Positions 38,127 through 61,674 of a stretch of DNA of 64,000 bases are shown one piece after another. A program made the translations under genes and the position numbers. Each line of letters starts with the position of its first letter. Positions within the stretch are counted from its first letter, which is position 1. The notes below the pieces were generated by a model. That model saw only the letters and a list, made by a program, of their open reading frames with translations. It had not been told where the DNA came from and made no database searches. The DNA comes from Patescibacteria group bacterium (GTDB lineage Bacteria; Patescibacteriota; Microgenomatia; UBA8517): NCBI GenBank assembly GCA_041742135.1, contig JBGSJG010000008.1:96518-160517 (forward strand), written 5' to 3'.

Positions 38127-38127
38127 G

Positions 38128-44983: not shown

Positions 44984-45418
44984 ATGTTAATAGGCAGCTA
45001 TCAGAGCAACTTAGGGGATAAACGAAGAGTTGCAGTACCTAAAAAATTTATAGAAAGTCTTGGGGAGAAACCAATAATTGCCAAGTGGTATGAAAACTGT
45101 TTGGTTTTGGTTAGCCAAGAATTTTGGGAAAAACTCTTAAACCGATTAACGGGTGGAAAAAAGACTGCCAGTTTGGGAGTTCGAGACATTGAAAGGTTTA
45201 TCTTGGGCTCAGCTTATGAAGTTGAACCAGATACACAGGGGAGAATAATTATTCCCGAATTATTGGCACATTACGGAGGACTCAAGCAAGAAGTAGTTTT
45301 TATAGGCTTGGGAGACCGGGTCGAGGTTTGGTCAAAGGAAGCTTGGGACAGCAAGGCCACAGAGCTTTCAAAGACCACCCGAGATTACATTGAAAGTTTA
45401 TCTGAAAGGGAAAATTAA
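44984..45418 (+). CDS. mraZ: Transcriptional regulator MraZ
   Basis: 144 aa. Two tandem MraZ/SpoVT-AbrB-like halves (GDKRRVAVPKKF ... DTQGRIIIPELL). First gene of the dcw cluster. Confidence 0.85.
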   Translation: MLIGSYQSNLGDKRRVAVPKKFIESLGEKPIIAKWYENCLVLVSQEFWEKLLNRLTGGKKTASLGVRDIERFILGSAYEVEPDTQGRIIIPELLAHYGGLKQEVVFIGLGDRVEVWSKEAWDSKATELSKTTRDYIESLSEREN

Positions 45419-46249
45419 ATGCATGAACCTGTATTAGTTAGTGAGGTAATTGATTATTTGCACATTCAAAATAACGCACAGTACATAGACGCGACCTTGG
45501 GAGCGGCTGGGCACAGCTTAGAAATTCTTAAAAGAGGCGGAATGGTTTTAGGAATAGAAGCAGACCCTGCGATGCTAAAGTTTTCAAAAAAACGAGTGGG
45601 AGAAGCCTGCCCTACACTTGTTTTAGGTAACTTCAGAGATATCGCAAAAATCGCTCGCGGAAGCGGATTTACAAATGTGTCTGGGATACTTTTTGATCTT
45701 GGGATTTCAAGCATTCATTTTGATACCGATGCTCGTGGGTTTTCCTTTAAAGACCCCAGCTCACCTCTTGATATGAGGCTAAATCCTGAAGTTCAAGCTG
45801 TAACCGCAGCTGATTTGTTAAATAGTTTGGACCAAACTCAGTTAACGAATTTGTTTGAGTCGTCAAGGTTAGCACGCGATGTAGTAAACGCCAGAAAATT
45901 TAAGAAATTTGCTTTAGTTGGCGATTTATTGTCACTTTTTGAGGGAAAAACGCGAGGCAAAATTCATCCAGCTACCAAGGCTTTTATGGATTTGCGTATC
46001 GCGGTCAATAGCGAGCTGGACAATATCGCCGAGGCTTTACCGGATGCATTTGATCTTTTGGCCAAAGGCGGAAAATTGTGCGTAATATCTTTCCACTCTG
46101 GTGAAGATCGGATTGTTAAAGAGAATTTTAGACGTCTGGTTGATCAGGGCATAGCAGAAGCGACCGACTTGATTCTACCTAGTCAATCAGAAGTCGAGCG
46201 AAATCCGAGGTCCCGAAGTGCAAAGATGCGAGTTTTAACAAAGTTATGA
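45419..46249 (+). CDS. rsmH: 16S rRNA (cytosine1402-N4)-methyltransferase RsmH (MraW)
   Basis: 276 aa. YIDATLGAAGHS, FDLGISS, with a conserved C-terminal SQSEVERNPRSRSAK. Confidence 0.9.
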   Translation: MHEPVLVSEVIDYLHIQNNAQYIDATLGAAGHSLEILKRGGMVLGIEADPAMLKFSKKRVGEACPTLVLGNFRDIAKIARGSGFTNVSGILFDLGISSIHFDTDARGFSFKDPSSPLDMRLNPEVQAVTAADLLNSLDQTQLTNLFESSRLARDVVNARKFKKFALVGDLLSLFEGKTRGKIHPATKAFMDLRIAVNSELDNIAEALPDAFDLLAKGGKLCVISFHSGEDRIVKENFRRLVDQGIAEATDLILPSQSEVERNPRSRSAKMRVLTKL

Positions 46250-46536
46250 ATAAAACAAAATTGATGGTTTTGATTTCTGTAATAGCCGCAGCTGCTCTGA
46301 TGGTGACAGTCGCGGTTGGCTCCAGTCTTTGGGGCTCTGAGCTTCATGAGCTGGAGAACGCTATTTCTCAACTTGAGGAAGAAAATAAAGTAACACAGGA
46401 AAAAATTGTCCAAGGAACTTCTTTGACGGCGCTGTATGAAATCCGCGAAGAGCTAGGATTTGCCAAACCTTCAAGAGTGATTTATATGGGGGATCATACA
46501 TCAGTTGCCCAAGCGCATAATGGAGCTTCGAATTAG
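46246..46536 (+). CDS. ftsL: FtsL-like cell-division membrane protein
   Basis: 96 aa. A single TM then a coiled-coil (LHELENAISQLEEENKVTQEK). In the canonical position between rsmH and ftsI. Confidence 0.5.
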   Translation: MNKTKLMVLISVIAAAALMVTVAVGSSLWGSELHELENAISQLEEENKVTQEKIVQGTSLTALYEIREELGFAKPSRVIYMGDHTSVAQAHNGASN

Positions 46537-48250
46537 GATCATTTCTATCGGTTTTGTAGTAGCAGTTGTTGTTTTGGTGGGAAAATTAGCTTTTTGGCAG
46601 GTGGTCCGCGGCCAAGAGCTTGCAAGTCAAGGAAGGTATCAGCAACAAAGTACTCGATTGATTGATGCTAAAAGAGGGGACATTCTTTCCTCTGACGGAA
46701 GCTATCTTGCAGCAAGTAACGACGCATGGCTTTTGGTGGCTCAGAGGCCAAAATTTGTCGAAAGTCCGGCTAAAGTTGCAAGTGAACTTGCTAAATTATT
46801 CAAAGGCGAAGAAATCTATGAGGACGATGAAGAAAAAGATGAAGCTTTGGATCGTGAAGAAAAACGGCTTTACGACCTTTTGGTGCGCGATGAGCTCATG
46901 TGGATTCCGCTTAAAAATCGTGTTGATAGAGCAATGCGAGAAAAAATTGAAAAACTTGCGTTTGAGGGCTTGGAGTTTGAGATTGAGGAGGATCGATACT
47001 ATCCGGAGGCTTCCGCCGCCGCACAAATTTTAGGTTTTGTGGGCAAAGATGAAGACGGAAACGATAAGGGTTACTTTGGCTTGGAAGGTTATTACGATTT
47101 GTCGCTTGCGGGCAAGGAGGGTTTTAGAAGCCGCGAAGCAAATGCTCTTGGAGTACCCATTATTTTTGGTGACAGCAAGGAAGCCTCAGCGATACGTGGA
47201 ACCGATTTAATCACACACATTGACAGGACAATTCAGATTGTGGTCGAGAGTAAGCTTGCCGAAGGGCTTGAAAAATACGGTGCACTTTCGGGCAATATTA
47301 TTGTTACCAATCCTCAAACAGGTGCAATTTTGGCTATGGCCACAAGCCCCAGCTACGATCCTAAGAAATATTATGATTATGGCGATGAATTTTTTAGAAA
47401 TCCTGTGATTTCGGATGCTTTTGAGCCTGGGTCGATTTTTAAGCCTTTAGTGATGGCTGCTGCATTGGACGCGGGAGTGGTCAAACCTGACACGATTTGC
47501 GATATTTGCGACAAGCCCTATCAGGTGGACAAATATTTTATTCGCACTTGGAATAATGAATACAACGCCGGCGCCACAATGCAAGACGTTATAGTTCACT
47601 CAGATAACGTAGGAATGGCATTCACGGGCAATAGGCTAGGAGCCGACCGATTGCATGATTATCTATCGGCCTACGGCTTTGGCGGCCTTACAGGGATTGA
47701 TTTGCAAGGAGAAGTGACGCCTTCGATTCGCTCAAAAGGGACATGGAACGTGGTGGACTTGGCGACTACATCTTTTGGCCAAGGAATTGCTGTCACTCCT
47801 ATTCAGATGGTTTCGGCATTGGGTGCATTGGCCAATAAGGGCGTGCTTATGGCCCCGCAACTTGTCGATAAAATAAAAATTGCGGGGGATACGGAAGATA
47901 TTGAGCCTGTGGAAGTTCGTCGTGTCGTTTCACGAGATGCTGCGGAGGACATCACGCGGATGATGATTGCCGCGGTTAAAAGTGGTGAGGCGAAGTGGGC
48001 GGTCCCTGCGGGCTTTACCATTGCAGGCAAGACCGGTACAGCTCAGATTCCGGTAGCTGGGCATTACGATTCAGAGAAAACTATCGCAAGCTTTGTGGGC
48101 TTTGCTCCACCTTCAGACCCCAAGTTTTTAATGCTTATAACGCTTCGTGAGCCTCAAAGCTCTCCTTGGGCATCTGAAACCGCAGCTCCTTTGTGGTTTG
48201 ATATTGCCAAGGAAATATTTCCCTATCTAGGTATACAGCCAGGCGAATAA
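46505..48250 (+). CDS. ftsI: Penicillin-binding protein 2/FtsI (class B transpeptidase)
   Basis: 581 aa. N-terminal TM, SxxK (GSIFKP), SxN (HSDNVG) and KTG (AGKTGTAQ). Confidence 0.85.
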   Translation: MPKRIMELRIRIISIGFVVAVVVLVGKLAFWQVVRGQELASQGRYQQQSTRLIDAKRGDILSSDGSYLAASNDAWLLVAQRPKFVESPAKVASELAKLFKGEEIYEDDEEKDEALDREEKRLYDLLVRDELMWIPLKNRVDRAMREKIEKLAFEGLEFEIEEDRYYPEASAAAQILGFVGKDEDGNDKGYFGLEGYYDLSLAGKEGFRSREANALGVPIIFGDSKEASAIRGTDLITHIDRTIQIVVESKLAEGLEKYGALSGNIIVTNPQTGAILAMATSPSYDPKKYYDYGDEFFRNPVISDAFEPGSIFKPLVMAAALDAGVVKPDTICDICDKPYQVDKYFIRTWNNEYNAGATMQDVIVHSDNVGMAFTGNRLGADRLHDYLSAYGFGGLTGIDLQGEVTPSIRSKGTWNVVDLATTSFGQGIAVTPIQMVSALGALANKGVLMAPQLVDKIKIAGDTEDIEPVEVRRVVSRDAAEDITRMMIAAVKSGEAKWAVPAGFTIAGKTGTAQIPVAGHYDSEKTIASFVGFAPPSDPKFLMLITLREPQSSPWASETAAPLWFDIAKEIFPYLGIQPGE

Positions 48251-48288
48251 TTAGACTGACTTGCGTGAAAAGTGTATAATTTGCACAC
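48251..48288 (+). promoter_or_regulatory. Putative internal promoter for murA with an extended -10 (TGTATAAT, 48273-48280) ending only 8 nt before the ATG, implying a leaderless or near-leaderless transcript
   Basis: ttagac (48251-48256), an 18-nt spacer, then tgTATAAT. No Shine-Dalgarno sequence between the -10 and the start codon at 48289. Confidence 0.35.
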
Positions 48289-49575
48289 ATGAATCTTCGC
48301 GTTTATGGCGGTACGGCGCTTTCCGGAGAAATTACTCCTTCAGGGAGTAAAAACGCTATAGTGGCGCTTCTTCCTTCAACTCTTCTGTTTGATAAACCAG
48401 TAACATTCACAAACGTCCCCGACATTACCGATGTAGGCAGACTTGTAAAAGTATTAACTGCGTTGGGTGGCAAAGTTGACTGGAATAAAGCAGAGAAGAA
48501 GATGGTTATAGATAACTCGAATGTATCCATGAAGGGTTTGGGAAAAGAAGAGGTCGGAAATATGAGGGGCACGGCACTTTTATGGGGGCCAATGTTGGCA
48601 CGTTTCAGAAGTGTAGCATTTGATGAACTTCCCGGAGGTTGTACATTAGGAGTTCGCCCGCTAAACCCTCATTACGATGCTTTTGAAAAATTGGGAGTTA
48701 AAGTTGACGCGAGCTTTAAAAGTACAAAAATGGATGCCGCAAACGCTCGCTCAGCTGACTTTTGGCTCACTGAAATGAGCCCAACCGTGACTGAGAACGT
48801 GATAATGTTTGCGACTTCGCTCCCCGGAAAAACAAGAATAACCGGTGCTGCTTCTGAGCCCAATGTTCAGGATCTCTGTGTCTTTTTAAATAAGTGCGGA
48901 GCAGATATCAAGGGAGTTGGCTCAAGTATTTTAGAGATCGAAGGCGGCAAGCCATTGTCTCCCGTGGAGCACAAAGTTATAAGCGACCATTACGAGATTG
49001 CAACTTTCCTTTCGCTCGCCGCGGCAACCGGAGGCGAAATTTCAATTAAGGATGCTATCCCTGAGCATTTTTCTTATATCAACCATATATTCTCGCGTTT
49101 TGGGGTTAATGTAATTTACGAGGGTACTACTGCAAAGATTGCCAGAAACTTAGAGCTTTCGATTCACTGCGAGAATGGACCTCTTCAAATAAAAGCTCAG
49201 CCATGGCCGGGATTACCAGTGGATTTACTTCCGATATTTATGCCACTGGCACTTGCCGCTCCTAAAAATGCAGCCCTTTTTCATAATTGGATGTATGAAT
49301 CTGGATTGTTTTGGACTTCAGAATTTTCAAAATTTGGTGCAAATGTTCTTCTGTGTGATCCTCATCGTGTGCTTATAACAGGCGGGCACAAACTTTACGG
49401 CAGTGAAATCGAAGCCCCATACATTATTCGAGCGGTGGTGGCCCTCATGATGGCAGCCATGATTGCTGAGGGTGAAAGCACAATACTAAACGCGGATGCA
49501 ATTCACCGGGGGCACCCGGACTTTGCTGAGAACTTAAAGAGTTTGGGTGCTAAAATCGAGGAAATTAATGGTTAA
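48289..49575 (+). CDS. murA: UDP-N-acetylglucosamine 1-carboxyvinyltransferase MurA
   Basis: 428 aa. SGSKNA, a catalytic Cys in LPGGCTLGVRP, and a conserved EPSP-synthase-like fold. Confidence 0.9.
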   Translation: MNLRVYGGTALSGEITPSGSKNAIVALLPSTLLFDKPVTFTNVPDITDVGRLVKVLTALGGKVDWNKAEKKMVIDNSNVSMKGLGKEEVGNMRGTALLWGPMLARFRSVAFDELPGGCTLGVRPLNPHYDAFEKLGVKVDASFKSTKMDAANARSADFWLTEMSPTVTENVIMFATSLPGKTRITGAASEPNVQDLCVFLNKCGADIKGVGSSILEIEGGKPLSPVEHKVISDHYEIATFLSLAAATGGEISIKDAIPEHFSYINHIFSRFGVNVIYEGTTAKIARNLELSIHCENGPLQIKAQPWPGLPVDLLPIFMPLALAAPKNAALFHNWMYESGLFWTSEFSKFGANVLLCDPHRVLITGGHKLYGSEIEAPYIIRAVVALMMAAMIAEGESTILNADAIHRGHPDFAENLKSLGAKIEEING

Positions 49576-52030
49576 ATCTTCTAAAGCTAAGCTTTATTTC
49601 ACGCCAAAGACGAAAGTACACTTCATGGGAATTGGTGGAAGTGGCATGTCCGCAGTTGCCATGCTTGCCAATGCAGCTGGCTACGAAGTAGATGGTTGTG
49701 ATCAGTCACCCGCGACACCGTATATGAAAGAGCTTGCTCAGATAAATATCAAAACTGGCCACTCAAAAGATCATGTAAAAGGAAAAATTTTGGTTATTAG
49801 CCCGGCGATCAGTTTTATTAAACCCACTCCAGACGAAGTTCGCGCGGCCAAAAAAGTTATAACTTGGCAGGAGCTTTTGGGAAAAGAAATCGTGCAAGAC
49901 AAGAGCGTTATTGCAGTAGCTGGAACTCATGGCAAGTCTACTACCACGGCCATGCTTGCCTTAATCTTTGAGCAGGCGAAGTTAGACCCCGGAGTTATGA
50001 TTGGCGCAAAAGTCCCACAGTGGAACAGCAACTTTCGAGTTGGTCAGGGTAAGAATTTTATCGTTGAAGCGGACGAATTTAATGACAATTTCCTAAATTA
50101 CTCCCCAGAGATAGCCATAATCAACAATATCGAGTTCGATCACCCTGATTATTTTAAAGACGAGCCTCAGCTCATAAATAGTTTTAAGAATTTTATTTCT
50201 CGTCTTAAAGGTAGAAAAATATTAATTTTTAATTCTGACTCGAAGATTTTGTCTGATTTAGTCAAAGCAGCTGATAAGGATATTACGCGTATTAGCTATA
50301 GTTTAATAGATGAAAGCGCAGACGTTTATGGAAAGATAGTTAAAAAATCGTTAGCAGAAACTCGCTTTTCAGTCGTTTCAAAAAAGCTAAATGTTAATTT
50401 TACTTTTACGCTTAAGTTGGCAGGGGACTACAATGTGTCAAATGCTTTGGGTGCAATTGCTGCGGCAGTTTCCTGTTCAATAGACAAAAGTACCATAAAC
50501 GCTTCCCTTTCTAGCTTTTATGGAATTGGTAGACGTATGGAATTACTTGGCAAACCTGCCGGGGTTTTTGTTTATGATGATTATGCTCATCACCCTACAG
50601 CAATAAGAGAAACTCTTAAAGCACTGAGGCAAAGACATCATAAATCAAGAGTTACTGCTGTGATTGAGCCTCACTCTTTTTCTCGTACAAAAGCACTTCT
50701 GAATCAGTATAAAGGGGTATTTGAAAACGCTGATCGCGTTATAGTAGCACCAATTTTTAAAGCTAGAGACTCAGCAAATTTTGGAATTAGTTCAAATTCA
50801 ATAGTTAAAGTAGTCACTCACGGCAACATCCATGCTGCAAAAACATTGCATGATGCCACCGAAATGGCATTAAAAGGAGTAAAGAAGGGTGATGTGATTA
50901 TTGTTATGGGTGCGGGGCAAAGTAACGTTATTGCTACAGATTTAGTCAAGGCACTGTCTTTAAAAATATATAAAAATTACTCGTTAAAGAAGCTAAACAC
51001 TTTCAGAGTAGATGTGAAGGCTAAGCAATTTGTGGATGTTGAATCCGAGTTGGCTCTTAAACGATTGCTCAGCGATAAAAAAGTTAGAGCTGAAAAAAGG
51101 CTAATTATCGGGGCTGCAGCAAATATCCTTTTTACAAAAGATTTTGATGGGTTAGTCATTAAAAACTCTATAAAGGGAATCAGTTTAATTAGTGAAAGTA
51201 AAAATTATGTTACTCTCGAGGTAGGATCTGGCGAGAGCTGGCATGAATTGGTTATGTATAGCGTTAAAAACGGATGGGCTGGTATTGAAAATTTAGTTTA
51301 CATCCCAGGACTTGTTGGTGCGGCTCCGGTGCAAAATATTGCAGCTTATGGCCAGAATTTCTCAGACGTGTTTGTTAGCCTTGACGCTATAGATACTAAA
51401 ACAGGCAAAAAGAAAGTTTTCAGTAAAGAGGACTGCATGTTTGGTTATAGAGATAGTTATTTTAAGTCAAAAGCTCCGGGTCGGTTTGTTGTCACAAAAG
51501 TTAGACTAAAGCTCGCAAAAACCGCTCATATTAATACTTCGTATTTTGAAACAGGTAAGACTTTTGCAAAAAATGTTTCACTTGAGCAAGAGTTAGCATT
51601 AATCGCAAAGCCACCTTATACAATTCACGACGTTGCAATGGCAGTTATGAGTATTCGCAAAAAGAAACTTCCTGAAGTCTCCGACGTAGGAACTGTTGGT
51701 AGTTTTTTTAAAAACCCTGTTATTACTAAAGAGAAATACTTAGCACTTAAAGAGGCAGATCCTGATTTGCAATCTTACCCAGTCGAAGACTTGAGGTACA
51801 CAAAAAAAGTAAACGGCGAGATGGTCAAAATCCCGGCCGCCAGACTTTTAGATACTCTAGGATGGAAAGGCAAAAAAATTGGCAAAGTGGGAACACACCC
51901 CACACAAGCGCTTGCTGTAGTTAATTACGGAGCCAAGCCTAAGGATATTTTGAAATTTACGAGACAGATGCAAAAGGCGGTACTGGATAAGTTTGGAATC
52001 GAGCTTGAGCCGGAGGTCGTAATTATATGA
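49547..52030 (+). CDS. murC/murB: Fusion protein: UDP-N-acetylmuramate--L-alanine ligase (MurC, residues about 1-470) fused to UDP-N-acetylenolpyruvoylglucosamine reductase (MurB, about 475-827)
   Basis: 827-aa single ORF. MurC motifs are HFMGIGGSGMSAVAMLA and AGTHGKSTTT. MurB motifs are YIPGLVGAAPVQNIAAYG, FGYRDSYFK, GSFFKNPV and a C-terminal FGIELEPEVVI. No stop between the domains. The probable start is the Met at 49568. Confidence 0.85.
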   Translation: MLKSRKLMVKSSKAKLYFTPKTKVHFMGIGGSGMSAVAMLANAAGYEVDGCDQSPATPYMKELAQINIKTGHSKDHVKGKILVISPAISFIKPTPDEVRAAKKVITWQELLGKEIVQDKSVIAVAGTHGKSTTTAMLALIFEQAKLDPGVMIGAKVPQWNSNFRVGQGKNFIVEADEFNDNFLNYSPEIAIINNIEFDHPDYFKDEPQLINSFKNFISRLKGRKILIFNSDSKILSDLVKAADKDITRISYSLIDESADVYGKIVKKSLAETRFSVVSKKLNVNFTFTLKLAGDYNVSNALGAIAAAVSCSIDKSTINASLSSFYGIGRRMELLGKPAGVFVYDDYAHHPTAIRETLKALRQRHHKSRVTAVIEPHSFSRTKALLNQYKGVFENADRVIVAPIFKARDSANFGISSNSIVKVVTHGNIHAAKTLHDATEMALKGVKKGDVIIVMGAGQSNVIATDLVKALSLKIYKNYSLKKLNTFRVDVKAKQFVDVESELALKRLLSDKKVRAEKRLIIGAAANILFTKDFDGLVIKNSIKGISLISESKNYVTLEVGSGESWHELVMYSVKNGWAGIENLVYIPGLVGAAPVQNIAAYGQNFSDVFVSLDAIDTKTGKKKVFSKEDCMFGYRDSYFKSKAPGRFVVTKVRLKLAKTAHINTSYFETGKTFAKNVSLEQELALIAKPPYTIHDVAMAVMSIRKKKLPEVSDVGTVGSFFKNPVITKEKYLALKEADPDLQSYPVEDLRYTKKVNGEMVKIPAARLLDTLGWKGKKIGKVGTHPTQALAVVNYGAKPKDILKFTRQMQKAVLDKFGIELEPEVVII

Positions 52031-53412
52031 AATCAATCAAAGGTGTCACTGATGACTCTAGAAAAGTTAAAAAAGGCTTTGTTTTTGTGGCAATAAAAGG
52101 AGAGCATTTTGATGGCAACGATTATATTTCAGAAGCTATCGATAATGGGGCGGCTGAAATTGTAAGCGAAAAGAAAATGCCGATAAACTGGGACTCTAAG
52201 GTCAATTACCGAAAGGTTGCCAATGCCCGTCGTGAGCTCTCGTTATTGGCTTGTGAATTTTACGCCAATCCTTCAAAAAAAATGACGGTTATTGGTGTTA
52301 CAGGGTCGGACGGAAAAACGACAACTTCCCATATGATTTATGAAGTTTTAAAAAAAGCTGGTAAGCCAGTGGGTTTGATTTCAACAATCTCGGCAAAGAT
52401 CAAAAATCGTGAAGTCGATACGGGCTTTCATGTTACAAATCCTGAGCCTCTAGAATTACAAAAACTGCTATCTCAAATGGTCAAATCAGGACTTGACTAT
52501 GTTGTTTTGGAGGTAACTTCGCATGGCATTGATCAAGAGCGAATTGCTGGAATCAATTTCGATTTGGCGGTTTTGACAAATATCACACACGAGCATCTTG
52601 ATTATCATAAAACTTTTAGTAAGTATCGGGATACCAAGCTTAGGTTGTTTTTGGATGCGAAAACTTCTGTCCTAAATAAAGATGATAAAAATTACGATTA
52701 TTTGAGTGGGAAAATTAAAAATAAAAAAATCTCTTATTCTTTGAATCAAGACGCAGATTTCACTCCTTCTACTCTTGAGCTTGATAAATTAATGGGCTTA
52801 TCACTTCCAGAAGTTGGTTCATACAATATTCAAAATGCTCTTGCTGCCGCGGCAACTGCCTCGGTACTCGGAGTTTCACTCAAAATAACTCAAGATGCTT
52901 TGGCAAAAATGCAATTGCCCAAAGGCAGGCTCCAGAGAATAAAAAACACAAAAGGAGTCAACCTGTACGTCGATTTTGCCCATACGCCAAATGCACTGCA
53001 GCAAGTTCTCGGGTTACTTAAAGAGCAAACGGAAGGCAAATTGATTGTCGTTTTTGGTTGCGCCGGAGAGCGAGACAAGCAAAAACGCTCAATGATGGCT
53101 AGAATTGCAACAGATATCTCTGATTTTTCAGTCTTTACGGCTGAAGACCCCAGAAGTGAAAAGATTGAAGATATCTTGGCGCAAATGGAATTAGGAGTTA
53201 AAAACAAAAAAGCTGCACGTTTCAAAATAGCCGAGCGGGGTGAGGCAATCAGTTTTGCCGTAAACGAGCTGTCAAAAGCCGGAGATACATTGGTCATAAC
53301 AGGTAAAGCGCACGAAAAAAGTATGGCTTATAATGGTATTGAATATCCATGGAGCGACTTTGAGGCAGTTGATATGGCGCTAAAGGGCAAGACTTTAAAA
53401 ATTAAAAGATGA
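52027..53412 (+). CDS. murE: UDP-N-acetylmuramoyl-L-alanyl-D-glutamate--2,6-diaminopimelate ligase MurE
   Basis: 461 aa. N-terminal DDSRKVKKGFVFVAIKGEHFDGNDYI, P-loop GVTGSDGKTTTS and a DNPR-like EDPR motif. Confidence 0.8.
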   Translation: MKSIKGVTDDSRKVKKGFVFVAIKGEHFDGNDYISEAIDNGAAEIVSEKKMPINWDSKVNYRKVANARRELSLLACEFYANPSKKMTVIGVTGSDGKTTTSHMIYEVLKKAGKPVGLISTISAKIKNREVDTGFHVTNPEPLELQKLLSQMVKSGLDYVVLEVTSHGIDQERIAGINFDLAVLTNITHEHLDYHKTFSKYRDTKLRLFLDAKTSVLNKDDKNYDYLSGKIKNKKISYSLNQDADFTPSTLELDKLMGLSLPEVGSYNIQNALAAAATASVLGVSLKITQDALAKMQLPKGRLQRIKNTKGVNLYVDFAHTPNALQQVLGLLKEQTEGKLIVVFGCAGERDKQKRSMMARIATDISDFSVFTAEDPRSEKIEDILAQMELGVKNKKAARFKIAERGEAISFAVNELSKAGDTLVITGKAHEKSMAYNGIEYPWSDFEAVDMALKGKTLKIKR

Positions 53413-54536
53413 AAAAAAATATTGCAGTCTGTTTCGGGGGAGTATCTCCCGAGCATGAAGTTTCCGTTATTACTGGCCTGCAGGTGATGGAGCAGATTGA
53501 CCGAGATTTATTTGAGCCATTTGCGATTTATTTTACCAAAGAAGGACTTCTTAAGTTTCAAGATATTAAAAAGCGACATGACTTTAAAGTCGATGGGGGA
53601 AAAATTGTGAATTTTGCCAAAGATGAAAAAGGCGTTTATTTTATTGGTAGCACTCCCCTAGCCAAGAGAGTATATGTAGACTCGGCATATCTTGCTTTTC
53701 ATGGAGGATATGGGGAAGCTGGGCCCGTTCAAGGCTTTTTTGAAACGCTTGAATTGCCCTTTACATCTCCGCCCTTGGAAGCCTCGGCGATATCTATGAA
53801 TAAGCAGCTGACTCGGCAGGTTTTGTCACAGAACACGATAAATGTTGTCCGGGGGGTTTCAGTTTTTTCGGATGATGTGCTCAAAGACCCCGATGTTACA
53901 ATGCAAAAAGTGAAGAAGGAAATTGGATTGCCCGCAATAATTAAGCCTGTACATTTAGGTAGCAGTATCGGAATTAATGTTGCCAAAAAAGAAGTGGAGC
54001 TTAAAAAGTTTTTACTAGAAGCGGCCCATGTTGATAGCGAGATTTTGGTAGAGAAGCTTCTTGTCAACTTCGTAGAATATAATTGCTCGGTACGCGCAGT
54101 TGACGGAAAACTTGAAGCAAGCGAAGTGGAGCGACCCATCAAGTCGGATGAGATCTTAAGCTTTGCCGATAAATACCAAAAGGGTGGAAATAAAAAAGCT
54201 GCAGGGATGGCGTCGCTTGTGCGGGAACTCCCAGCTAAAATTCCAGTAAGTCTTAAAGATAAAATTCAAAAAATTGCGCGTGAAGTATTTAAAGCTACTA
54301 GATGCAAAGGACTGGTTAGAATTGATTTTATGGTAACTAGTGATAACGAAGTCTATGTAACTGAAGTAAATCCAATTCCTGGATCGATGGCTTTTTATCT
54401 GTGGGAAGCAAGCGGAGTTAGTTTTACTAAGCAAATTACTGATTTAATTGAGCAAAGCATCGTTGATTTCAAGAGTAAAGTGGGGAAAAAACTAGATTAT
54501 CAAAGTGATATTGTCGAGAAGTTTGTAAAAGTTTAG
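53409..54536 (+). CDS. ddl: D-alanine--D-alanine ligase
   Basis: 375 aa. N-terminal IAVCFGGVSPEHEVSV, an ATP-grasp core, and C-terminal EVNPIPG. Confidence 0.85.
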   Translation: MKKNIAVCFGGVSPEHEVSVITGLQVMEQIDRDLFEPFAIYFTKEGLLKFQDIKKRHDFKVDGGKIVNFAKDEKGVYFIGSTPLAKRVYVDSAYLAFHGGYGEAGPVQGFFETLELPFTSPPLEASAISMNKQLTRQVLSQNTINVVRGVSVFSDDVLKDPDVTMQKVKKEIGLPAIIKPVHLGSSIGINVAKKEVELKKFLLEAAHVDSEILVEKLLVNFVEYNCSVRAVDGKLEASEVERPIKSDEILSFADKYQKGGNKKAAGMASLVRELPAKIPVSLKDKIQKIAREVFKATRCKGLVRIDFMVTSDNEVYVTEVNPIPGSMAFYLWEASGVSFTKQITDLIEQSIVDFKSKVGKKLDYQSDIVEKFVKV

Positions 54537-55738
54537 TAGTAATTATCTCCAAGCTCCGGTTGCATTAGGACAAGATACTCTTTGGGGCTAAAGTTTTTTT
54601 TGATAATTTCCCAAGCATCAGTCATGCCTTCTGCAAGTAGTACTTCTTGGCTAATTCCTTCCAAGACTTCGTTGTGAAGAACAGTTTTGCAAAGGACTAC
54701 TTGCGCCTTGGATTCGGCTAATATTTTGCCGTATTCGAAGTTGGCATCTTTGTTTTCGCGCCCCAACTCTGGTATTCCCGCAGTAACTACAATTAGTTTT
54801 TTCTTCATTTGTTTTGCCAACAAAAGTGCATTTTTAAGCGTGAACTTTGCTGTGGTAAAGCTTATGTTGTAGCTTTCGTCAATTGTCTCAAAACCGTGAA
54901 GATCAATGATGTTTCCGCGTCTGTCTGGTTTGGCAAGTTTTTTAGCAGTATCATCGACAATATCTTTAGGAATTTTCAAAGCCTTGGCAACTGCCAACGC
55001 ATATTCAAGATTAGATTCCTTGTCGGAAATTTTAATCGCCCCAGCTTTTGCGTAATTAAAAACTTCGTGAAGCGCGATTTTAAGCTTTGCCTTGCTGCCA
55101 AATCTTTCCAAATGTTGGTCCCCCACGTTTGTTAAAATTGCGATGTCGGGCGGAGTTATCGCGCAACTTCTTTTAATTTCTCCGATAAAGTACGTATCCA
55201 TTTCGACTATTAAAATTTCAGTAGTTGTGTTTAAATTTTTTAGAATCCACGCAGCAATTCCTGTCGGCGTATTAATGTTGCCCGGAATCATCTGGGTTTT
55301 AAAGTTATAGCGAACCAGTTCGTAAATATAATTTTTGGTCGTGGTTTTGCCAAAGCTTCCTGCGACGGCTATAACTTTCCCGTTATATTTGTTAGCAAAA
55401 TGTTTTGCCGCGGATTTTTGGATGCCATGCTTAATACGCTCGTAAATCGGGTTTAAAACAATGTTTGCGAGAGCAACCCAAAAAGGAATCAAAAGAACCG
55501 TGAAAATAATCGTCAAGTATGATCCCAGAATGGTGAGCACTACGCTAAGTGCCAACGTAACCCTCACTCTTGAAGTTAAAACCAGCTTTTGCCGCTTTTG
55601 AAAGCCTCTTTTTAAAAAAAATCTGGAGATTAATTTTAAGTAGCGTTTAGTATCATACTCTTCGAGTTGAAGAAGGTACAAAAAGTCAAAGAAGGGGAAA
55701 ATTTTGTCAATCATATAAATTTGTTTATGAGTCCCCAA
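54533..55738 (-). CDS. murF: MurF-like Mur ligase with a hydrophobic (2-TM) N-terminal region in place of the usual N-terminal domain, encoded antisense to the dcw cluster
   Basis: 401 aa. P-loop VIAVAGSFGKTTTK, GNINTPTG (cf. MurF GNxNNxIGxP), TNVGDQHLERFGS and IDESYN (cf. MurF DDSYNAN). N-terminal LALSVVLTILGSYLTIIFTVLLIPFWVALANIVL is predicted membrane-spanning. Confidence 0.55.
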   Translation of the reverse strand: MGTHKQIYMIDKIFPFFDFLYLLQLEEYDTKRYLKLISRFFLKRGFQKRQKLVLTSRVRVTLALSVVLTILGSYLTIIFTVLLIPFWVALANIVLNPIYERIKHGIQKSAAKHFANKYNGKVIAVAGSFGKTTTKNYIYELVRYNFKTQMIPGNINTPTGIAAWILKNLNTTTEILIVEMDTYFIGEIKRSCAITPPDIAILTNVGDQHLERFGSKAKLKIALHEVFNYAKAGAIKISDKESNLEYALAVAKALKIPKDIVDDTAKKLAKPDRRGNIIDLHGFETIDESYNISFTTAKFTLKNALLLAKQMKKKLIVVTAGIPELGRENKDANFEYGKILAESKAQVVLCKTVLHNEVLEGISQEVLLAEGMTDAWEIIKKNFSPKEYLVLMQPELGDNYY

Positions 55739-56367
55739 AGTAAGTTTGGATTTTCAAACTGAATGTTGTGGCCGCTATTTTGAATTTCCTCAAACCTTGA
55801 GTGCTTTATAAGTGAATGCATTTTTTGCCCTATGGCAATAGGTGCTGTTTTATCTTTGGATCCCCAGATAATTAGCGTTGGGCATTTTATTTCTGGCAGT
55901 TGTTTTGTCATGTCGTAGTTAACAGATTTTTTGAAAACCTCGCCCAAGCCTTTTTCTATAGCTTCCTTGTACTCCATGTTTTTAGTTATCGATCTTTTCT
56001 TGGGAAAGAGTCGCTTGCCAACTTTATGTAAAACGATTTTAAGACGAATTTTTAAGGGTGGCATATACAAAAGAGGCGCGGCGACAAGAATCAGCTTTTT
56101 GACAAGCTCCGGATGATCAATGGCAACTTGTGCTGCAATTTTACCTCCAAAAGAATGGCCAACAAGCACAATGGAGTTAAGATTATTTTTCTTAATTTTT
56201 TTTGCTACCCACTGGGCATATTCTTTGATTCCCCAGTCTGAAGAAATTAGTTTTTCATTCCCAAATCCAGGAAGGTCCATTAGAAGAACGTCTCTATCAA
56301 ACTTTTGTGCAAAGCCTTGCCACGCTTCTTTTGAATGCCCCCATCCATGGAGGATTACTATTGGCAT
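55711..56367 (-). CDS. Alpha/beta-hydrolase fold protein (esterase/lipase-like)
   Basis: 218 aa. N-terminal HGWGHS oxyanion region and a nucleophile elbow VGHSFGG. Overlaps the MurF-like gene by 28 nt. Confidence 0.7.
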   Translation of the reverse strand: MPIVILHGWGHSKEAWQGFAQKFDRDVLLMDLPGFGNEKLISSDWGIKEYAQWVAKKIKKNNLNSIVLVGHSFGGKIAAQVAIDHPELVKKLILVAAPLLYMPPLKIRLKIVLHKVGKRLFPKKRSITKNMEYKEAIEKGLGEVFKKSVNYDMTKQLPEIKCPTLIIWGSKDKTAPIAIGQKMHSLIKHSRFEEIQNSGHNIQFENPNLLWGLINKFI

Positions 56368-56424
56368 GTCCTTATTTTACTACAAACAACTTGTGCCGTG
56401 AAAAGTTGGGCAGAGATTGATATA

Positions 56425-57495
56425 ATGAGTGGTACGATGAATACTCCGTCAGTTCTGCCTTTAGCTCTCGGGCTCGTAATAGTGTCGTTTTTTGTTTCCA
56501 GCTCACTGATTGTTCCTTTTATCAATTTGCTTTATAGAATTAAGCTTGTAAGAAGGAGAGAAGGTGAGTTTGGGGGGAAGACAAAATCTCTTTTTGACAA
56601 ACTTCACGACAAAAAAGCAGGAACGCCCATAGGTGGAGGAATTATCTTAATTTTTATTACCACGATATTATTTTTTGTCATCCTTCCTTTTGCCGCAAAA
56701 ATGGGACTTTTTATTCATACTTCTTTTAACCTGCGAGACGAGCTTGTGGTAATTTTTGTAACCTTTGTTTCGTTTGGGCTTTTGGGGCTACTTGATGACG
56801 TGGTCAAGATTTTTGGTAAACCGAAAGCTGGCAAAATTGGCGCAGTTTTTGGTATGACCAAGCTTCAGAAATTTGCTCTACAGTGGATTTTGGGGCTTAT
56901 CATTGGATTCCTGATTTATAATAATCTTGGAATTAGAATCCTTCATATCCCACTTTTTGAAATAGTTATTAATCTTGGTCCTCTTTATATTCCATTTGCT
57001 GCTTTTGTGATTGTGTTTTTTGCGAACGCTTTTAATCTTACTGACGGCTTGGACGGCTTGGCATCGGGACTTTTGATGATTTATCTGTTTGCCTACATAA
57101 TCATCGCAATTGAGCACTTGGACACTCCACTGTTTATGTTTATTTCAATTTGGCTTGGGTCGATTATTGCTTTTCTTTATTTCAATATTCCGCCTGCCAG
57201 AATTTTTTTGGGCGACACCGGGGCTCTAAGCTTTGGGGCAATGATCGCGGTTATTGGGCTTATGATCGGAAACGTGGCTACACTGTTTATTATCGGCGGA
57301 TTATTTGTGTTTGAAGCAGCTTCTTCTTTGATTCAGATGGCTGGCTGGAAGTATCTTAAGCGCGGCATTTTTCCTTTGGCGCCGATTCACCATGCCCTTG
57401 AAGCCATGGGTTGGGAAGAGCCAAAAATTGTAATGCGTGCTTGGCTGGCAGCTTTAATGCTGGCTGTCTTCGGCCTTTGGTTGACTACTATATGA
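56425..57495 (+). CDS. mraY: Phospho-N-acetylmuramoyl-pentapeptide transferase MraY
   Basis: Polytopic. DD motif region NAFNLTDGLDGLA and GDTGALSFGAMIAVIG. Start set at the internal Met; the ORF-track start at 56335 would overlap the convergent hydrolase gene. Confidence 0.85.
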   Translation: MSGTMNTPSVLPLALGLVIVSFFVSSSLIVPFINLLYRIKLVRRREGEFGGKTKSLFDKLHDKKAGTPIGGGIILIFITTILFFVILPFAAKMGLFIHTSFNLRDELVVIFVTFVSFGLLGLLDDVVKIFGKPKAGKIGAVFGMTKLQKFALQWILGLIIGFLIYNNLGIRILHIPLFEIVINLGPLYIPFAAFVIVFFANAFNLTDGLDGLASGLLMIYLFAYIIIAIEHLDTPLFMFISIWLGSIIAFLYFNIPPARIFLGDTGALSFGAMIAVIGLMIGNVATLFIIGGLFVFEAASSLIQMAGWKYLKRGIFPLAPIHHALEAMGWEEPKIVMRAWLAALMLAVFGLWLTTI

Positions 57496-57498
57496 AAA

Positions 57499-58614
57499 AT
57501 GGCTGCCAGACGAAAGAAAAATTTTCGATTCAAAACTCAAAACACTGGTGTCTTCGATAGACAACTATTTTGGCTTACGGTGCTTCTAACAGTTATTGGC
57601 CTTCTTGCAGTCTCTGATGCTTCGGGACCTCAAGCTATGGCAGCTTTTGGCAGCCCTTTTTATTTTGCACGGCAACAGATTATGTGGGCGGTGGTTGGTT
57701 TTGTTGGCCTTATTGTTGCTTCTCGAATTCATTATTCTTATTGGAAGAAAGTGGCTTTTATAATCGGCATATCAGCAGTTATTTTACTACTGGTAGTTCT
57801 GATCCCGGGAGTTGGCACGAAAGCTTTGGGGGCACGCAGGTGGCTTAATCTTGGGCCAATGGCGCTTCAGCCTTCAGAAGTTGCCAAGTTTGCAGTCATA
57901 GTAGTCATTGCACGTCTCTTGGACGAAAAATACCCGTTTAAATATCCAGTGGCTCTAATCGGGGGGATTAGCATGCTTGTAATGCTTCAGCCAGATTTGG
58001 GAACGACGATTGTAATTGCGGGAGCTGGCCTATTGCAACTATTTGTCGGCGGAATGCCCCTGGCTTCTTTGTTTGCTACTATTGCCTCGGGAGCAGTTGC
58101 AACTGGATTTCTAATTTTGACTTCCGAGTATCGCCGCGCGCGCCTTATGACTTTTTTGGAAAGCGGCAGTGATCCATTGGGAAACTCGTATCATATGAAG
58201 CAAATCTTGATAGCACTTGGATCGGGAGGTTTATTTGGTGTAGGTATTGGCCAATCACGCCAAAAACACCTTTTTTTGCCTGAAAGTGCAAGCGATTCGA
58301 TTTTTGCGGTTGTCGCTGAAGAAACAGGTTTTGTTGGCGCTGCTCTTCTTGTTATTCTTTTGGCTTATTTTATTATTAAAATCTTGAAAGTGGCGGTTAA
58401 TGCACCTGACAATTTTTCCAAATTACTAGCCTCGGGGATTGCCATTTGGTTATGTCTTCAGATGTTTCTTAATATCTCTTCTGTTGTTGCAGTTACACCT
58501 TTGACTGGCATTCCACTTCCATTTTTTAGTTATGGAGGCTCAAGCCTTGTGATGATTCTCTTCGGAGTGGGTATAATACTAAATATCTCCCGCTATGCCA
58601 AAGACAAAAAATAA
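57499..58614 (+). CDS. ftsW: SEDS-family cell-division peptidoglycan polymerase FtsW
   Basis: 371 aa. About 10 TM helices with C-terminal PLTGIPLPFFSYGGSSLV. Confidence 0.85.
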   Translation: MAARRKKNFRFKTQNTGVFDRQLFWLTVLLTVIGLLAVSDASGPQAMAAFGSPFYFARQQIMWAVVGFVGLIVASRIHYSYWKKVAFIIGISAVILLLVVLIPGVGTKALGARRWLNLGPMALQPSEVAKFAVIVVIARLLDEKYPFKYPVALIGGISMLVMLQPDLGTTIVIAGAGLLQLFVGGMPLASLFATIASGAVATGFLILTSEYRRARLMTFLESGSDPLGNSYHMKQILIALGSGGLFGVGIGQSRQKHLFLPESASDSIFAVVAEETGFVGAALLVILLAYFIIKILKVAVNAPDNFSKLLASGIAIWLCLQMFLNISSVVAVTPLTGIPLPFFSYGGSSLVMILFGVGIILNISRYAKDKK

Positions 58615-59704
58615 TTTAGTTTTAACCGGTGGCCACGCAGCAACAACTGCTATGGCTTTGGTCGAAGCTCTCAAAGAAAAACTGTCCAAGAACGCAACAA
58701 TATCGTGGATAGGAACAAAAAATGCTGTGGAAGGGAAAAAGGGCCTCACCTTGGAATTTAAAACTTTTCATGCTTTGGGAATTAACTGCTATGCAATTAC
58801 AACAGGAAGAGTGCAGAGGAAGTTCACAAGACATACAATCTTTTCGCTTTTAAAAATTCCTTTGGGTTTTGTCCATGCTTTGTGGCTAATATTAAAAATT
58901 CGTCCTGACGCGATTGTTTCATTTGGAGGTTTTGCTGCTTTCCCTGTTGTTGTGTGGGGCAGGCTATTGGGCGTGCCTGTGGTGATACACGAGCAGACAA
59001 CGGCAATTGGTATGGCCAATAAATATTCAGTACCATTTGCTGCTAAAGTCGCAATTTCTCGTGACGAGAGCCGCAAGTATTATCCCAAAAATAAAATAGT
59101 TCTCACAGGCAATCCTGTGCGTAAGGCCTTTTTTGAAATTCCTGCAAAAGCTAAAATGGCCGTGCCACCAACAATATATGCAACTGGAGGCTCGCGTGGG
59201 TCTCAGAATTTTAATGCAAAGCTGCTTGAAATTTTGCCAAGCGTTCTTGATGAGTTTAAAGTAATCCACCAATGTGGCGATTTTGATTATGAATTATTTA
59301 CGACCTTTAAAGATTCACTTATGGGATTCAAAAAAGATCACTATGAAGTTCATTCTACTATCGACCCACTCAAAGTCCCACAAATACTTAAAATTGCCGA
59401 CATTGTCATTGGGCGTGCAGGGGCCAATACCGTCTCTGAGGTAATCGCCGCGCGCCGGCCAGCAATTTTTATCCCCATCCCTTGGAGCCAAAATGACGAG
59501 CAGACCAAAAATGCCAAACTTATGGAGGCTGAAGGCATGGCGATTGTTCTTAATCAAAACGATATGAGCTCGGAATCATTTTTGAAAGCAATACACCAAA
59601 TTAAGGCTGATTATGGAAAGTACGCACTTCACAGCGATTCGGATTTGCGTGAACTGGATCGACAGGCCGCAGAAAAACTAGCGCTCTTGGCATTATCACT
59701 ATGA
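58595..59704 (+). CDS. murG: UDP-N-acetylglucosamine--N-acetylmuramyl-(pentapeptide) pyrophosphoryl-undecaprenol GlcNAc transferase MurG
   Basis: 369 aa. N-terminal LTGGHAATTAMAL and the GT28 C-terminal ATGGSRGSQNFN. Confidence 0.85.
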   Translation: MPKTKNNLVLTGGHAATTAMALVEALKEKLSKNATISWIGTKNAVEGKKGLTLEFKTFHALGINCYAITTGRVQRKFTRHTIFSLLKIPLGFVHALWLILKIRPDAIVSFGGFAAFPVVVWGRLLGVPVVIHEQTTAIGMANKYSVPFAAKVAISRDESRKYYPKNKIVLTGNPVRKAFFEIPAKAKMAVPPTIYATGGSRGSQNFNAKLLEILPSVLDEFKVIHQCGDFDYELFTTFKDSLMGFKKDHYEVHSTIDPLKVPQILKIADIVIGRAGANTVSEVIAARRPAIFIPIPWSQNDEQTKNAKLMEAEGMAIVLNQNDMSSESFLKAIHQIKADYGKYALHSDSDLRELDRQAAEKLALLALSL

Positions 59705-60357
59705 AAAGAAAAATTGGCGCAGCAGTTCTTGTCCTCGTAATCATAATTTTGAGTTTAGTTTTTTTGTCAAAGGCATTTACGATTAATTCGATTCAATGCA
59801 CGAGCGAAGGCTCTTGTGATGGTGAGGTTGTAGGTTTACTGGAATCTCAGAAAGGCAAAAACTATTTTGCAGCCAAAAAAAGCTTAGGCGACTCCTTGTC
59901 CTCGCACCCAAAAGTTGAAAGTTACGAGATTCATTTTGCTGTTCCTTCTACTTTAAGCCTTTCTTTAATTCAAAAAAAAGAGGCCTTTGGTTTAAAGTTT
60001 GCTCAAAATCGCTATCTTTTGTTTGACGAAGATGCAAGCCTTATTGGTGAGTCGGAAAGTACCGATCTGCCTTACGCCACAGTTTTGGGAGTTCCCCTTG
60101 ATAACGAGTTAGTTTTTGGGGTTAAATTAATGCTTGAGTTGGTTAAGTACTATGGAGCAGAAAATATGAGAGTGGACAAAAATGGCTTTTACGCGGTTTT
60201 GCCAAACCGTGGAGAAGTAACGTTTCCGCTTTCGGGAGACGTGGACGTCGTTTTGGGCTCTTTAGAGGCTGTTCTTTCACAGTTGAATCGCTCGCCGCAA
60301 AATCATACAATTACGATAGATCTACGGTATAAAAATCCAGTAGTTTATGGAATATGA
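59701..60357 (+). CDS. ftsQ: FtsQ/DivIB-like cell-division protein (short)
   Basis: 218 aa. N-terminal TM, then a POTRA-like region. In the canonical position between murG and ftsA. Confidence 0.5.
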   Translation: MKRKIGAAVLVLVIIILSLVFLSKAFTINSIQCTSEGSCDGEVVGLLESQKGKNYFAAKKSLGDSLSSHPKVESYEIHFAVPSTLSLSLIQKKEAFGLKFAQNRYLLFDEDASLIGESESTDLPYATVLGVPLDNELVFGVKLMLELVKYYGAENMRVDKNGFYAVLPNRGEVTFPLSGDVDVVLGSLEAVLSQLNRSPQNHTITIDLRYKNPVVYGI

Positions 60358-61634: not shown

Positions 61635-61674
61635 CGTTTAGTATCAATCTGCTACACTGCCGTTAAGATTAACT

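What the first reader, a model, noticed from the sequence alone, without database searches (positions are those of the whole stretch)
49547..52030. MurC and MurB encoded as a single 827-aa fusion ORF
The N-terminal 470 residues carry MurC motifs (GIGGSGMS, GTHGKSTTT). Residues from about 475 carry the complete MurB FAD-binding and substrate domains (IPGLVGAAPVQNIAAYG, GYRDS, GSFFKNP, LEPEV), with no stop or frameshift between them. The fusion would physically couple consecutive cytoplasmic peptidoglycan steps: MurB makes UDP-MurNAc and MurC adds L-Ala. It is also a useful phylogenetic marker for the lineage.
Basis: seen in the sequence. Interest (0 to 1): 0.55.

Follow-up and report, generated by a model that had tools for sequence, protein, structure and literature searches.

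The report
Independent MurC–MurB gene fusion, Woesebacteria-like
Two consecutive cell-wall precursor enzymes (MurC and MurB) are encoded here as one 820-residue protein, an architecture already known from Verrucomicrobium and common in Patescibacteria; this copy arose on its own, because all of its closest relatives keep two overlapping genes.

Summary
Window 49547-52030(+) is one uninterrupted ORF, most likely starting at ATG 49568 (820 aa). The N-terminal part (about residues 16-458 of the 820-aa protein) passes the curated MurC equivalog cutoff. The C-terminal part (about 466-820) passes a type-I MurB equivalog cutoff. All catalytic motifs are kept.

The architecture is not new. [quoted passage not shown] More than 100 fused homologues, including MurC-MurB-MurD triples, exist in Patescibacteria.

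The lineage-specific result is new. The 120 nearest listed MurB relatives (45-72% identity) are all free-standing. Eight syntenic loci from five related lineages have separate murC and murB genes, overlapping by 4 nt (ATGA) or 29 nt. In trees the window nests among unfused genes (99/100 bootstraps with its unfused sister), apart from the main fused clade and from P0002.

This is therefore an independent, lineage-restricted fusion. It came from a net +4-nt change that removed both the murC stop and the murB start. Fusion state is labile, so it is a poor phylogenetic marker.

A sequencing indel cannot be excluded (about 10%). No reads and no second assembly are available. The window shows no split genes, and the junction is not a homopolymer.

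Substrate channelling remains an inference.

The parts
49568..52030 (+). Fused murC-murB gene (820 aa plus stop).
   Evidence: An identical 820-aa protein, P0001, is in NCBI. The stop overlaps the murE start as ATGA.
49558..49562 (+). GAGGA Shine-Dalgarno-like motif, 5 nt upstream of ATG 49568
   Evidence: Read directly from the sequence; inferred function.
49568..50956 (+). MurC module (residues 1-463): UDP-MurNAc:L-Ala ligase with P-loop GTHGKST and the EADE, DHPD, DDYAHHP and EPHS motifs. It ends with a C-terminal helix, '...DLVKAL'.
   Evidence: TIGR01082 382.7 bits, above the 335.1 cutoff. Pfam finds three Mur ligase domains. PDB MurC 9ir5 E=4.7e-69. AF2 helix 452-463.
50957..50965 (+). 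Junction TCT TTA AAA (S464-L465-K466). L465 (TTA) sits where relatives have the MurB start Met. There is no stop and no canonical start codon here.
   Evidence: There is no in-frame ATG/GTG/TTG between 50906 and 51014. pLDDT is about 90 across the junction.
50960..52027 (+). MurB module (residues 465-820): type-I UDP-N-acetylenolpyruvoylglucosamine reductase. The catalytic R (YRDS), S (GSFFKNP) and E (LEPEV) are conserved.
   Evidence: NF000755 359.3 bits, above the 277 cutoff. End-to-end alignment to P. aeruginosa 4JAY (E=1.3e-68) and E. coli 1MBB. Column conservation.
50954..50954 (+). The C in GCACTG. Without it the sequence would read as two genes, murC '...KACL*' and murB 'ATG-MSLKIYKNYSL', overlapping by 10 nt. 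This is the most plausible single-base difference between the fused and split states.
   Evidence: Exhaustive single-edit scan. Control on bona fide fusions.
48289..49575 (+). murA, immediately upstream (the preceding pathway step)
   Evidence: NF006873 361 bits, above the 297 cutoff.
52027..53412 (+). murE, immediately downstream, with a 4-nt overlap
   Evidence: NF001126 467 bits, above the 373 cutoff.
44984..62847 (+). Enclosing dcw cluster: mraZ, mraW, 96-aa ORF, ftsI, murA, murC-B, murE, ddl, [murF and an alpha/beta hydrolase on the minus strand], mraY, ftsW, murG, 218-aa ORF, ftsA, ftsZ
   Evidence: The same order is seen in relatives L081 and L085-L090.

Best explanation
A genuine bifunctional MurC-MurB enzyme gene in the dcw cluster of a Woesebacteria-like (Patescibacteria/Microgenomates) genome. 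It arose in this lineage from adjacent, translationally coupled murC and murB genes. Small indels (net +4 nt relative to ATGA-overlap relatives) removed the murC stop and the murB start and put the two reading frames in register.

The product joins MurC's C-terminal helix to MurB's first beta-strand through about three residues. The C-terminal module reduces UDP-GlcNAc-enolpyruvate to UDP-MurNAc using FAD and NADPH. The N-terminal module then ligates L-Ala to UDP-MurNAc using ATP.

Shown here: an uninterrupted ORF, two complete modules with intact catalytic motifs, the ancestral two-gene state in relatives, and the independent phylogenetic position.

Inferred: that both activities are present, that the benefit is fixed 1:1 stoichiometry and proximity rather than true channelling, and that the fusion is not an assembly error.
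For: The ORF and domains pass curated cutoffs, and the catalytic residues are conserved.

The exact 820-aa protein is on record.

Relatives with identical synteny carry separate murC and murB with ATGA or 29-nt overlaps.

The junction aligns as '...KAL | S | L(=Met)KIYKNYSL', with neither the ancestral stop nor the ancestral start.

In the MurB tree the window is sister to unfused P0121 in 99/100 bootstraps. It is separated from fused P0002 by at least 12 unfused sequences in 100/100 bootstraps. The MurC tree agrees.

The GAG-to-NYSLK spacing is 19 aa, the same as in the independent fusion P0002.

More than 100 natural fusions have equally short junctions.

The AF2 model has pLDDT 91 and pTM 0.82, and stays confident through the junction.

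Assembly quality in the window looks good: 60 dense ORFs with no split genes. The two halves have equal GC and GC3. The junction is not a homopolymer.

The same-order V. spinosum fusion complements E. coli murB(ts) and murC(ts) mutants (PMC4803751).
Against: Only one assembly carries this sequence. The protein cluster has 1 member, and no contig could be retrieved. Reads cannot be inspected.

Deleting the single C at 50954 would restore a plausible two-gene state.

Every near relative is unfused.

The FAD-domain motifs show two rare substitutions: GAAAN for GxG[SA]N and IPGLVG for IPGTVG, each seen in only 3 of 120 free-standing MurBs.

No biochemical data exist for this protein. MurB activity of the V. 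spinosum fusion could not be shown in vitro (PMC4803751).
Confidence: 0.85

Rival explanations
1. Assembly or sequencing artefact. The real genome has two overlapping genes, as all relatives do, and a spurious single-base insertion (for example C at 50954) merged the frames.
For: All closest relatives have separate genes. A one-base deletion yields murC '...KACL*' and murB 'MSLKIYKNYSL...' with an ATG start. A 7-residue MurB head lies within the natural range of 5-20. There is no independent copy of the sequence.
Against: The context GCACTG is not a homopolymer. The rest of the 64-kb window shows no frameshift-split genes. An error would therefore have to fall by chance within about 10-20 specific bases out of 64,000. 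Bona fide fusions are also 0-16 single edits away from formal two-gene states, so this proximity is not diagnostic. The in-frame reading gives a MurC terminus, '...KAL', of exactly the length seen in relatives. Real fusions of this gene pair recur in the phylum.
Confidence: 0.1
2. The fused ORF is real but MurB is also, or mainly, made separately. This would happen by internal initiation (for example at ATG 50906 or a non-canonical codon) or by proteolytic cleavage at the junction, so the cell effectively has two enzymes.
For: An in-frame ATG at 50906 lies 19 codons upstream of the MurB module. The V. spinosum authors felt the need to test for cleavage.
Against: There is no canonical start between 50906 and 51014. 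ATG 50906 encodes the conserved Met of MurC's 'VMGAG' motif. The connector is only about 3 residues and is confidently ordered in the model. V. spinosum extracts did not cleave that fusion (PMC4803751).
Confidence: 0.04
3. One module is a decaying remnant of a recent, slightly deleterious fusion. MurB would be the candidate, given its rare FAD-motif substitutions, and the lost activity would be supplied by another gene elsewhere in the genome.
For: The rare substitutions GAAAN and IPGLVG. Only 64 kb of a contig of at least 297 kb was visible.
Against: All catalytic residues and the full-length alignment to type-I MurB are intact. The equivalog score is above its cutoff. No second murB or murC lies in the window. 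The same substitutions occur in a few free-standing MurBs.
Confidence: 0.02

Closest known systems
Verrucomicrobium spinosum MurB/C fusion enzyme (VspiD_010100018130; Naqvi et al. 2016, PMC4803751)
   Same: Same five Pfam domains in the same order (MurC N-terminal, MurB C-terminal) in a single polypeptide of 770-820 aa. Both catalyse consecutive cytoplasmic peptidoglycan steps.
   Different: Different phylum, and an independent origin. The paper describes about 100 residues between mapped Pfam domains, whereas here the modules abut with about 3 connecting residues. The V. spinosum enzyme has genetic complementation and MurC kinetics; this protein has no experimental data.
MurC-MurB fusions of Patescibacteria/Woesebacteria (e.g. 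complete genome CP011214.1, locus L009; P0006, P0014 and more than 100 others)
   Same: Same superphylum, same architecture, equally short junctions, and a dcw-cluster context.
   Different: Their MurB modules are only 29-38% identical to the window's and form a separate clade. The window's MurB belongs to a type-I clade that is otherwise free-standing. I found no publication describing the Patescibacteria fusions in the searchable library.
P0002 (locus L084), a fused protein with the same MurB type
   Same: The MurB module is 55% identical, and the GAG-to-NYSLK spacing is the same 19 residues.
   Different: Its MurC module and MurC tail (GAGKSYLWAREI...) belong to the main fused clade, which suggests a MurB domain replacement inside an existing fusion. 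It is separated from the window by at least 12 unfused sequences in every bootstrap, and its synteny differs.
Separate murC + murB of the nearest relatives (L085; L086/87, Ca. Woesebacteria RIFCSPHIGHO2; L088; L089/90; L081-83)
   Same: Orthologous genes (MurC 53-57% identical, MurB 60-72%) in identical cluster order.
   Different: Two genes in different frames, with an ATGA or 29-nt overlap.
Other natural Mur chimeras (MurE-MurF of Bordetella, MurC-Ddl of Chlamydia, MurG-MurC; PMC10214165)
   Same: Fusion of neighbouring dcw genes into one polypeptide. The proposed roles are fixed stoichiometry, stability and complex assembly.
   Different: Different partners. A structure exists only for MurE-MurF. 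That survey counted MurC-MurB as 11% of UniProt Mur chimeras and assigned it to Verrucomicrobia, after excluding unidentified species.

Membership tests
[quoted passage not shown] | Full-length match above the curated equivalog cutoff | tested here: met
   382.7 bits against a cutoff of 335.1, residues 23-465, profile positions 1-447 of 449
[quoted passage not shown] | Three Mur-ligase domains, an ATP P-loop GxxGK(S/T), and conserved acidic/His motifs | tested here: met
   PF01225, PF08245 and PF02875. GTHGKST, EADE, DHPD, DDYAHHP and EPH are invariant in alignment A2.
[quoted passage not shown] | L-Ala-adding activity on UDP-MurNAc | not testable with these tools
   Needs an enzyme assay or complementation of an E. 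coli murC(ts) mutant
MurB type I (UDP-N-acetylmuramate dehydrogenase, NF000755) | Full-length match above the curated equivalog cutoff | tested here: met
   359.3 bits against a cutoff of 277, residues 473-827, profile positions 3-335 of 343. End-to-end alignments to 4JAY and 1MBB.
MurB type I (UDP-N-acetylmuramate dehydrogenase, NF000755) | Catalytic Arg (YRDS), Ser (GSFFKNP) and Glu (LEPEV), corresponding to E. coli R159, S229 and E325 (residue numbers from my own knowledge) | tested here: met
   All three are present and near-invariant in 236 homologues
MurB type I (UDP-N-acetylmuramate dehydrogenase, NF000755) | Canonical FAD-binding glycine motif GxG[SA]N | tested here: inconclusive
   The window has GAAAN. 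The second Gly is Ala in only 3 of 120 free-standing homologues. The effect on FAD binding is unknown.
Bifunctional MurC-MurB ('MurB/C') fusion enzymes | Both complete modules in one uninterrupted reading frame, with MurC N-terminal | tested here: met
Bifunctional MurC-MurB ('MurB/C') fusion enzymes | Fusion confirmed independently of a single assembly (reads, or a second genome) | not testable with these tools
   The cluster has 1 member, and the contig look-up found nothing. There are no hits above 72% identity to either half.
Bifunctional MurC-MurB ('MurB/C') fusion enzymes | Common descent with the V. spinosum or main Patescibacteria fusion clade | tested here: not met
   The window nests within unfused genes. 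It shares the architecture by convergence, not by descent.

The most novel reading that the evidence does not exclude
The window captures a very young, independent MurC-MurB fusion, still one or a few mutations from its ATGA-overlap ancestor. It sits within a phylum where this gene boundary has repeatedly fused, split, swapped its MurB module (P0002) and extended to MurC-MurB-MurD triples. Patescibacteria would then be a natural replicated experiment on why consecutive peptidoglycan enzymes become covalently linked in ultra-small cells. This distribution is not described in the literature I could search.
Probability: 0.5. Interest if true: 0.4.

Novelty: new member of a known kind. Interest (0 to 1): 0.25.

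Why it matters
The protein itself is an ordinary example of a known chimera. The value lies in its evolutionary context. It shows that murC-murB fusion is recurrent and reversible in Patescibacteria, which rules it out as a lineage marker. It also shows that the fusion arises trivially from translationally coupled, overlapping genes. The fused gene and its unfused orthologues (53-72% identical) could be compared directly to test whether covalent linkage changes flux, stability or stoichiometry in early peptidoglycan synthesis. That question was left open by the V. spinosum and MurE-MurF studies.

Tried and rejected
1. Independent copies of the sequence. I looked for another copy to confirm the junction. 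The protein cluster has one member, the contig look-up for P0001 returned nothing, and the genome scan found nothing closer than 46% identity.

2. Exhaustive single-edit test. The idea was to exclude a sequencing error outright. It failed: 92 of 680 edits formally split the ORF, and one (deleting C50954) is biologically plausible. A control on established fusions showed the property is generic, so it neither supports nor refutes an artefact.

3. MurB N-terminal length. It varies from 5 to 20 residues before the N-Y-S-L motif, so it does not discriminate between hypotheses.

4. MurB type. My initial idea was that the window differs from other fusions by carrying type-I rather than type-II MurB. 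I dropped this, because MurB modules in the main fused clade are also about 320-335 aa. The real difference is clade membership.

5. Horizontal transfer or chimeric join at the junction. Rejected, because GC and GC3 are equal in the two halves and match the neighbouring genes.

6. RNA features. No tRNA or Rfam elements were found in the window.

7. Literature. Searches for a description of the Patescibacteria/CPR fusions found none.
Full report
**The observation.** Window 49547-52030(+) is a single ORF of 827 codons with no internal stop. Pfam places Mur_ligase, Mur_ligase_M and Mur_ligase_C at residues 23-457, and FAD_binding_4 and MurB_C at 494-827. NCBIfam equivalog models are passed by both halves. 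TIGR01082 (murC) scores 382.7 bits against a cutoff of 335.1 over residues 23-465. NF000755 (type-I MurB) scores 359.3 bits against 277 over residues 473-827.

The most likely start is ATG 49568. It has a GAGGA motif 5 nt upstream and overlaps the murA stop by 8 nt. The resulting 820-aa protein is exactly the one on record from NCBI (P0001, on a 297-kb contig).

**Are both halves functional?** The MurB half aligns end to end with solved type-I MurBs: P. aeruginosa 4JAY (E=1.3e-68) and E. coli 1MBB. It keeps the catalytic Arg (YRDS), Ser (GSFFKNP) and Glu (LEPEV), which are near-invariant in 236 homologues. The MurC half keeps the P-loop and the EADE, DHPD, DDYAHHP and EPH motifs, all invariant in a 69-sequence alignment. 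Its best PDB match is MurC 9ir5 (E=4.7e-69).

There are two rare substitutions in FAD-domain motifs: GAAAN for GxG[SA]N, and IPGLVG for IPGTVG. Each is shared by only 3 of 120 free-standing MurBs. I note them as a caveat, not as evidence of decay. No second murB or murC copy, and no murD, lies in the window.

**Genomic context.** The gene sits in a complete dcw cluster: mraZ, mraW, a 96-aa ORF, ftsI, murA, murC-B, murE, ddl, then murF and an alpha/beta hydrolase on the minus strand, then mraY, ftsW, murG, a 218-aa ORF, ftsA and ftsZ. The best-named relative is a Candidatus Woesebacteria MAG (P0124). The window is therefore from a Woesebacteria-like member of Patescibacteria/Microgenomates.

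**Is the architecture known?** Yes. The V. spinosum MurB/C enzyme has the same five domains in the same order in 770 aa. It complements E. coli murB(ts) and murC(ts) mutants and shows MurC kinetics in vitro, although MurB activity could not be demonstrated in vitro (PMC4803751). A 2023 survey counted MurC-MurB as 11% of UniProt Mur chimeras and assigned it to Verrucomicrobia, after excluding unidentified species (PMC10214165).

My protein search found more than 100 full-length fused homologues at 37-48% identity. Many are labelled Woesebacteria or Patescibacteria. About 16 of them are roughly 1150-aa MurC-MurB-MurD triples. Among species-representative genomes, L001-L004 and L009 (the complete genome CP011214.1) are fused. 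I found no paper describing the Patescibacteria fusions.

**What the nearest relatives do.** This is the main new result. A search with the MurB half alone returned 120 hits at 45-72% identity, and every one is a free-standing MurB of 344-378 aa. The most similar MurC halves (P0033 at 57%, P0107 and P0117 at 53%) are free-standing 454-aa proteins.

I retrieved eight loci from five related lineages: L085, L086/87, L088, L089/90 and L081-83. All share the window's gene order but have separate murC and murB. Four lineages have the classic ATGA stop/start overlap, and one has a 29-nt overlap.

Aligned, the relatives read '...GAGKSSDLAKMIIRAL*' and 'MKVYTNFSLKK...'. The window reads '...GAGQSNVIATDLVKAL-S-LKIYKNYSLKK...'. 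The window's MurC tail therefore has exactly the ancestral length (13 residues after GAG). One Ser is added, and a Leu (TTA 50960-62) occupies the position of the MurB initiator Met. At the DNA level the window is a net 4 nt longer than the ATGA-type relatives. That is the frame change needed to merge the two genes.

**Phylogeny.**
- In a neighbour-joining tree of 237 MurB modules, the window is sister to unfused P0121. Successive outgroups of 9, 7, 1 and 3 sequences are all unfused.
- The fused P0002 appears only at the sixth level, among unfused sequences. The main fused clade of about 115 sequences is a distant branch at 29-37% identity.
- Bootstrapping a 56-taxon subset gives window+P0121 in 99 of 100 replicates. 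At least 12 unfused sequences lie inside the smallest clade joining the window and P0002 in all 100 replicates.
- The MurC tree agrees.
- P0002 carries a MurC tail typical of the main fused clade, joined to a MurB of the window's type. This suggests replacement of the MurB module inside an existing fusion.
- Within the main clade, some species have reverted to, or retained, separate genes. L005 and L006 have a stop followed directly by ATG. L007, L008, L010 and L019 have overlaps of roughly 40 nt.

Fusion of this gene pair is therefore recurrent and labile. The window represents an independent event confined, as far as current data show, to its own lineage.

There is no canonical in-frame start codon between ATG 50906 (the Met of MurC's VMGAG motif) and GTG 51014. 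However, an exhaustive scan of single-base edits showed that deleting C50954 (GCACTG to GCATG) would give murC '...KACL*' and murB 'ATG-MSLKIYKNYSL...' with a 10-nt overlap. A 7-residue MurB head is within the natural range. An artefact therefore cannot be excluded from the sequence alone.

Several points argue against an artefact:
- The site is not in a homopolymer.
- The 64-kb window has 60 tightly packed ORFs. The five adjacent pairs with unusual overlaps all carry distinct, complete domains, so there is no sign of indel errors.
- GC and GC3 are the same in both halves and in the neighbouring genes, which argues against a chimeric join.
- The same single-edit test on bona fide fusions (L002, L003, L009, L091) finds 0-16 ATG-creating edits. 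Being one edit from a split state is therefore generic for these AT-rich junctions.
- The in-frame reading reproduces the ancestral MurC terminus.
- The GAG-to-NYSLK spacing is 19 residues, identical to that in the independent fusion P0002.

Weighing a chance error in about 10-20 critical bases against a fusion that demonstrably recurs in this phylum, I put a real fusion at about 85% and an artefact at about 10%. The remaining few per cent goes to the two minor rivals (internal initiation or cleavage, and a decaying module). No reads or second assembly were available.

**Structure and likely mechanism.** AlphaFold2, run with 69 fused homologues, gives mean pLDDT 91 and pTM 0.82. Helix 452-463 is the MurC C-terminal helix and ends at '...KAL'. 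S464-K466 form the connector, and strand 467-472 is the first strand of MurB. pLDDT is about 90 throughout the junction. This fits a compact, fixed two-enzyme protein rather than beads on a flexible tether. Two caveats apply: the alignment is dominated by the other fusion clade, and I could not inspect inter-domain error estimates.

Functionally, MurB (the C-terminal module) makes UDP-MurNAc, and MurC (the N-terminal module) adds L-Ala to it. Fusion guarantees 1:1 stoichiometry and proximity. True channelling is an inference with no direct support, here or in V. spinosum, where the MurC domain works without the MurB domain (PMC4803751).

**Verdict.** The architecture is already known and common in this superphylum. 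This copy is a new, independently arisen member whose closest relatives are all unfused. Novelty: a new member of a known kind. Interest is low to moderate and rests mainly on the evolutionary lability of the murC/murB boundary in Patescibacteria.

Noticed in passing
P0005, P0009, P0010, P0011, P0013, P0015, P0017 and others: Proteins of about 1130-1170 aa in Patescibacteria are triple fusions in the order MurC-MurB-MurD, with the MurD-like_N domain PF21799 at the C-terminal end. I found no description of these in the searchable literature.
   Followed up: partly
L084 2382-4679 (P0002) and L084 407-2398: P0002 combines a MurC tail typical of the main fused clade with a MurB module of the otherwise free-standing clade, an apparent in-situ MurB domain swap. 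Its upstream neighbour is a 663-aa Mur-ligase + NTP_transferase fusion.
   Followed up: partly
window 54533-56367 (-): A murF-like gene (401 aa) has only Mur_ligase_M detected and scores 125.6 bits against the TIGR01143 cutoff of 288.6. It lies with an alpha/beta hydrolase (218 aa), both inverted, in the middle of the otherwise co-directional dcw cluster. The same inverted pair is conserved in relatives L081, L085 and L086.
   Followed up: partly
window 1-64000: No murD was detected anywhere in the window, although the rest of the dcw cluster is complete. tblastn with a MurD module hits only murE, and weakly.
   Followed up: partly
L005-L010, L019: Among Woesebacteria-type species representatives, the murC/murB boundary occurs as a fusion, as a stop followed directly by ATG, and as overlaps of roughly 40 nt. 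The gene boundary is unusually labile.
   Followed up: yes
window 50951-52027, residues 514-518 and 579-584 of the 820-aa protein: The MurB module carries two rare substitutions in conserved FAD-domain motifs: GAAAN for GxG[SA]N, and IPGLVG for IPGTVG. Each is seen in 3 of 120 free-standing homologues.
   Followed up: partly
window ~30200-38130 (+): A run of surface-polysaccharide genes lies upstream of the dcw cluster: a GT2 glycosyltransferase, a Wzy_C O-antigen-ligase-like protein, and two adjacent GT4 glycosyltransferases.
   Followed up: no
Record titles of L002, L003, L006, L011 and others: Many MAG records that clearly carry Patescibacteria-type dcw genes are titled 'uncultured Gammaproteobacteria bacterium'. 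These are probably placeholder or mislabelled taxonomy in the TPA assemblies.
   Followed up: no
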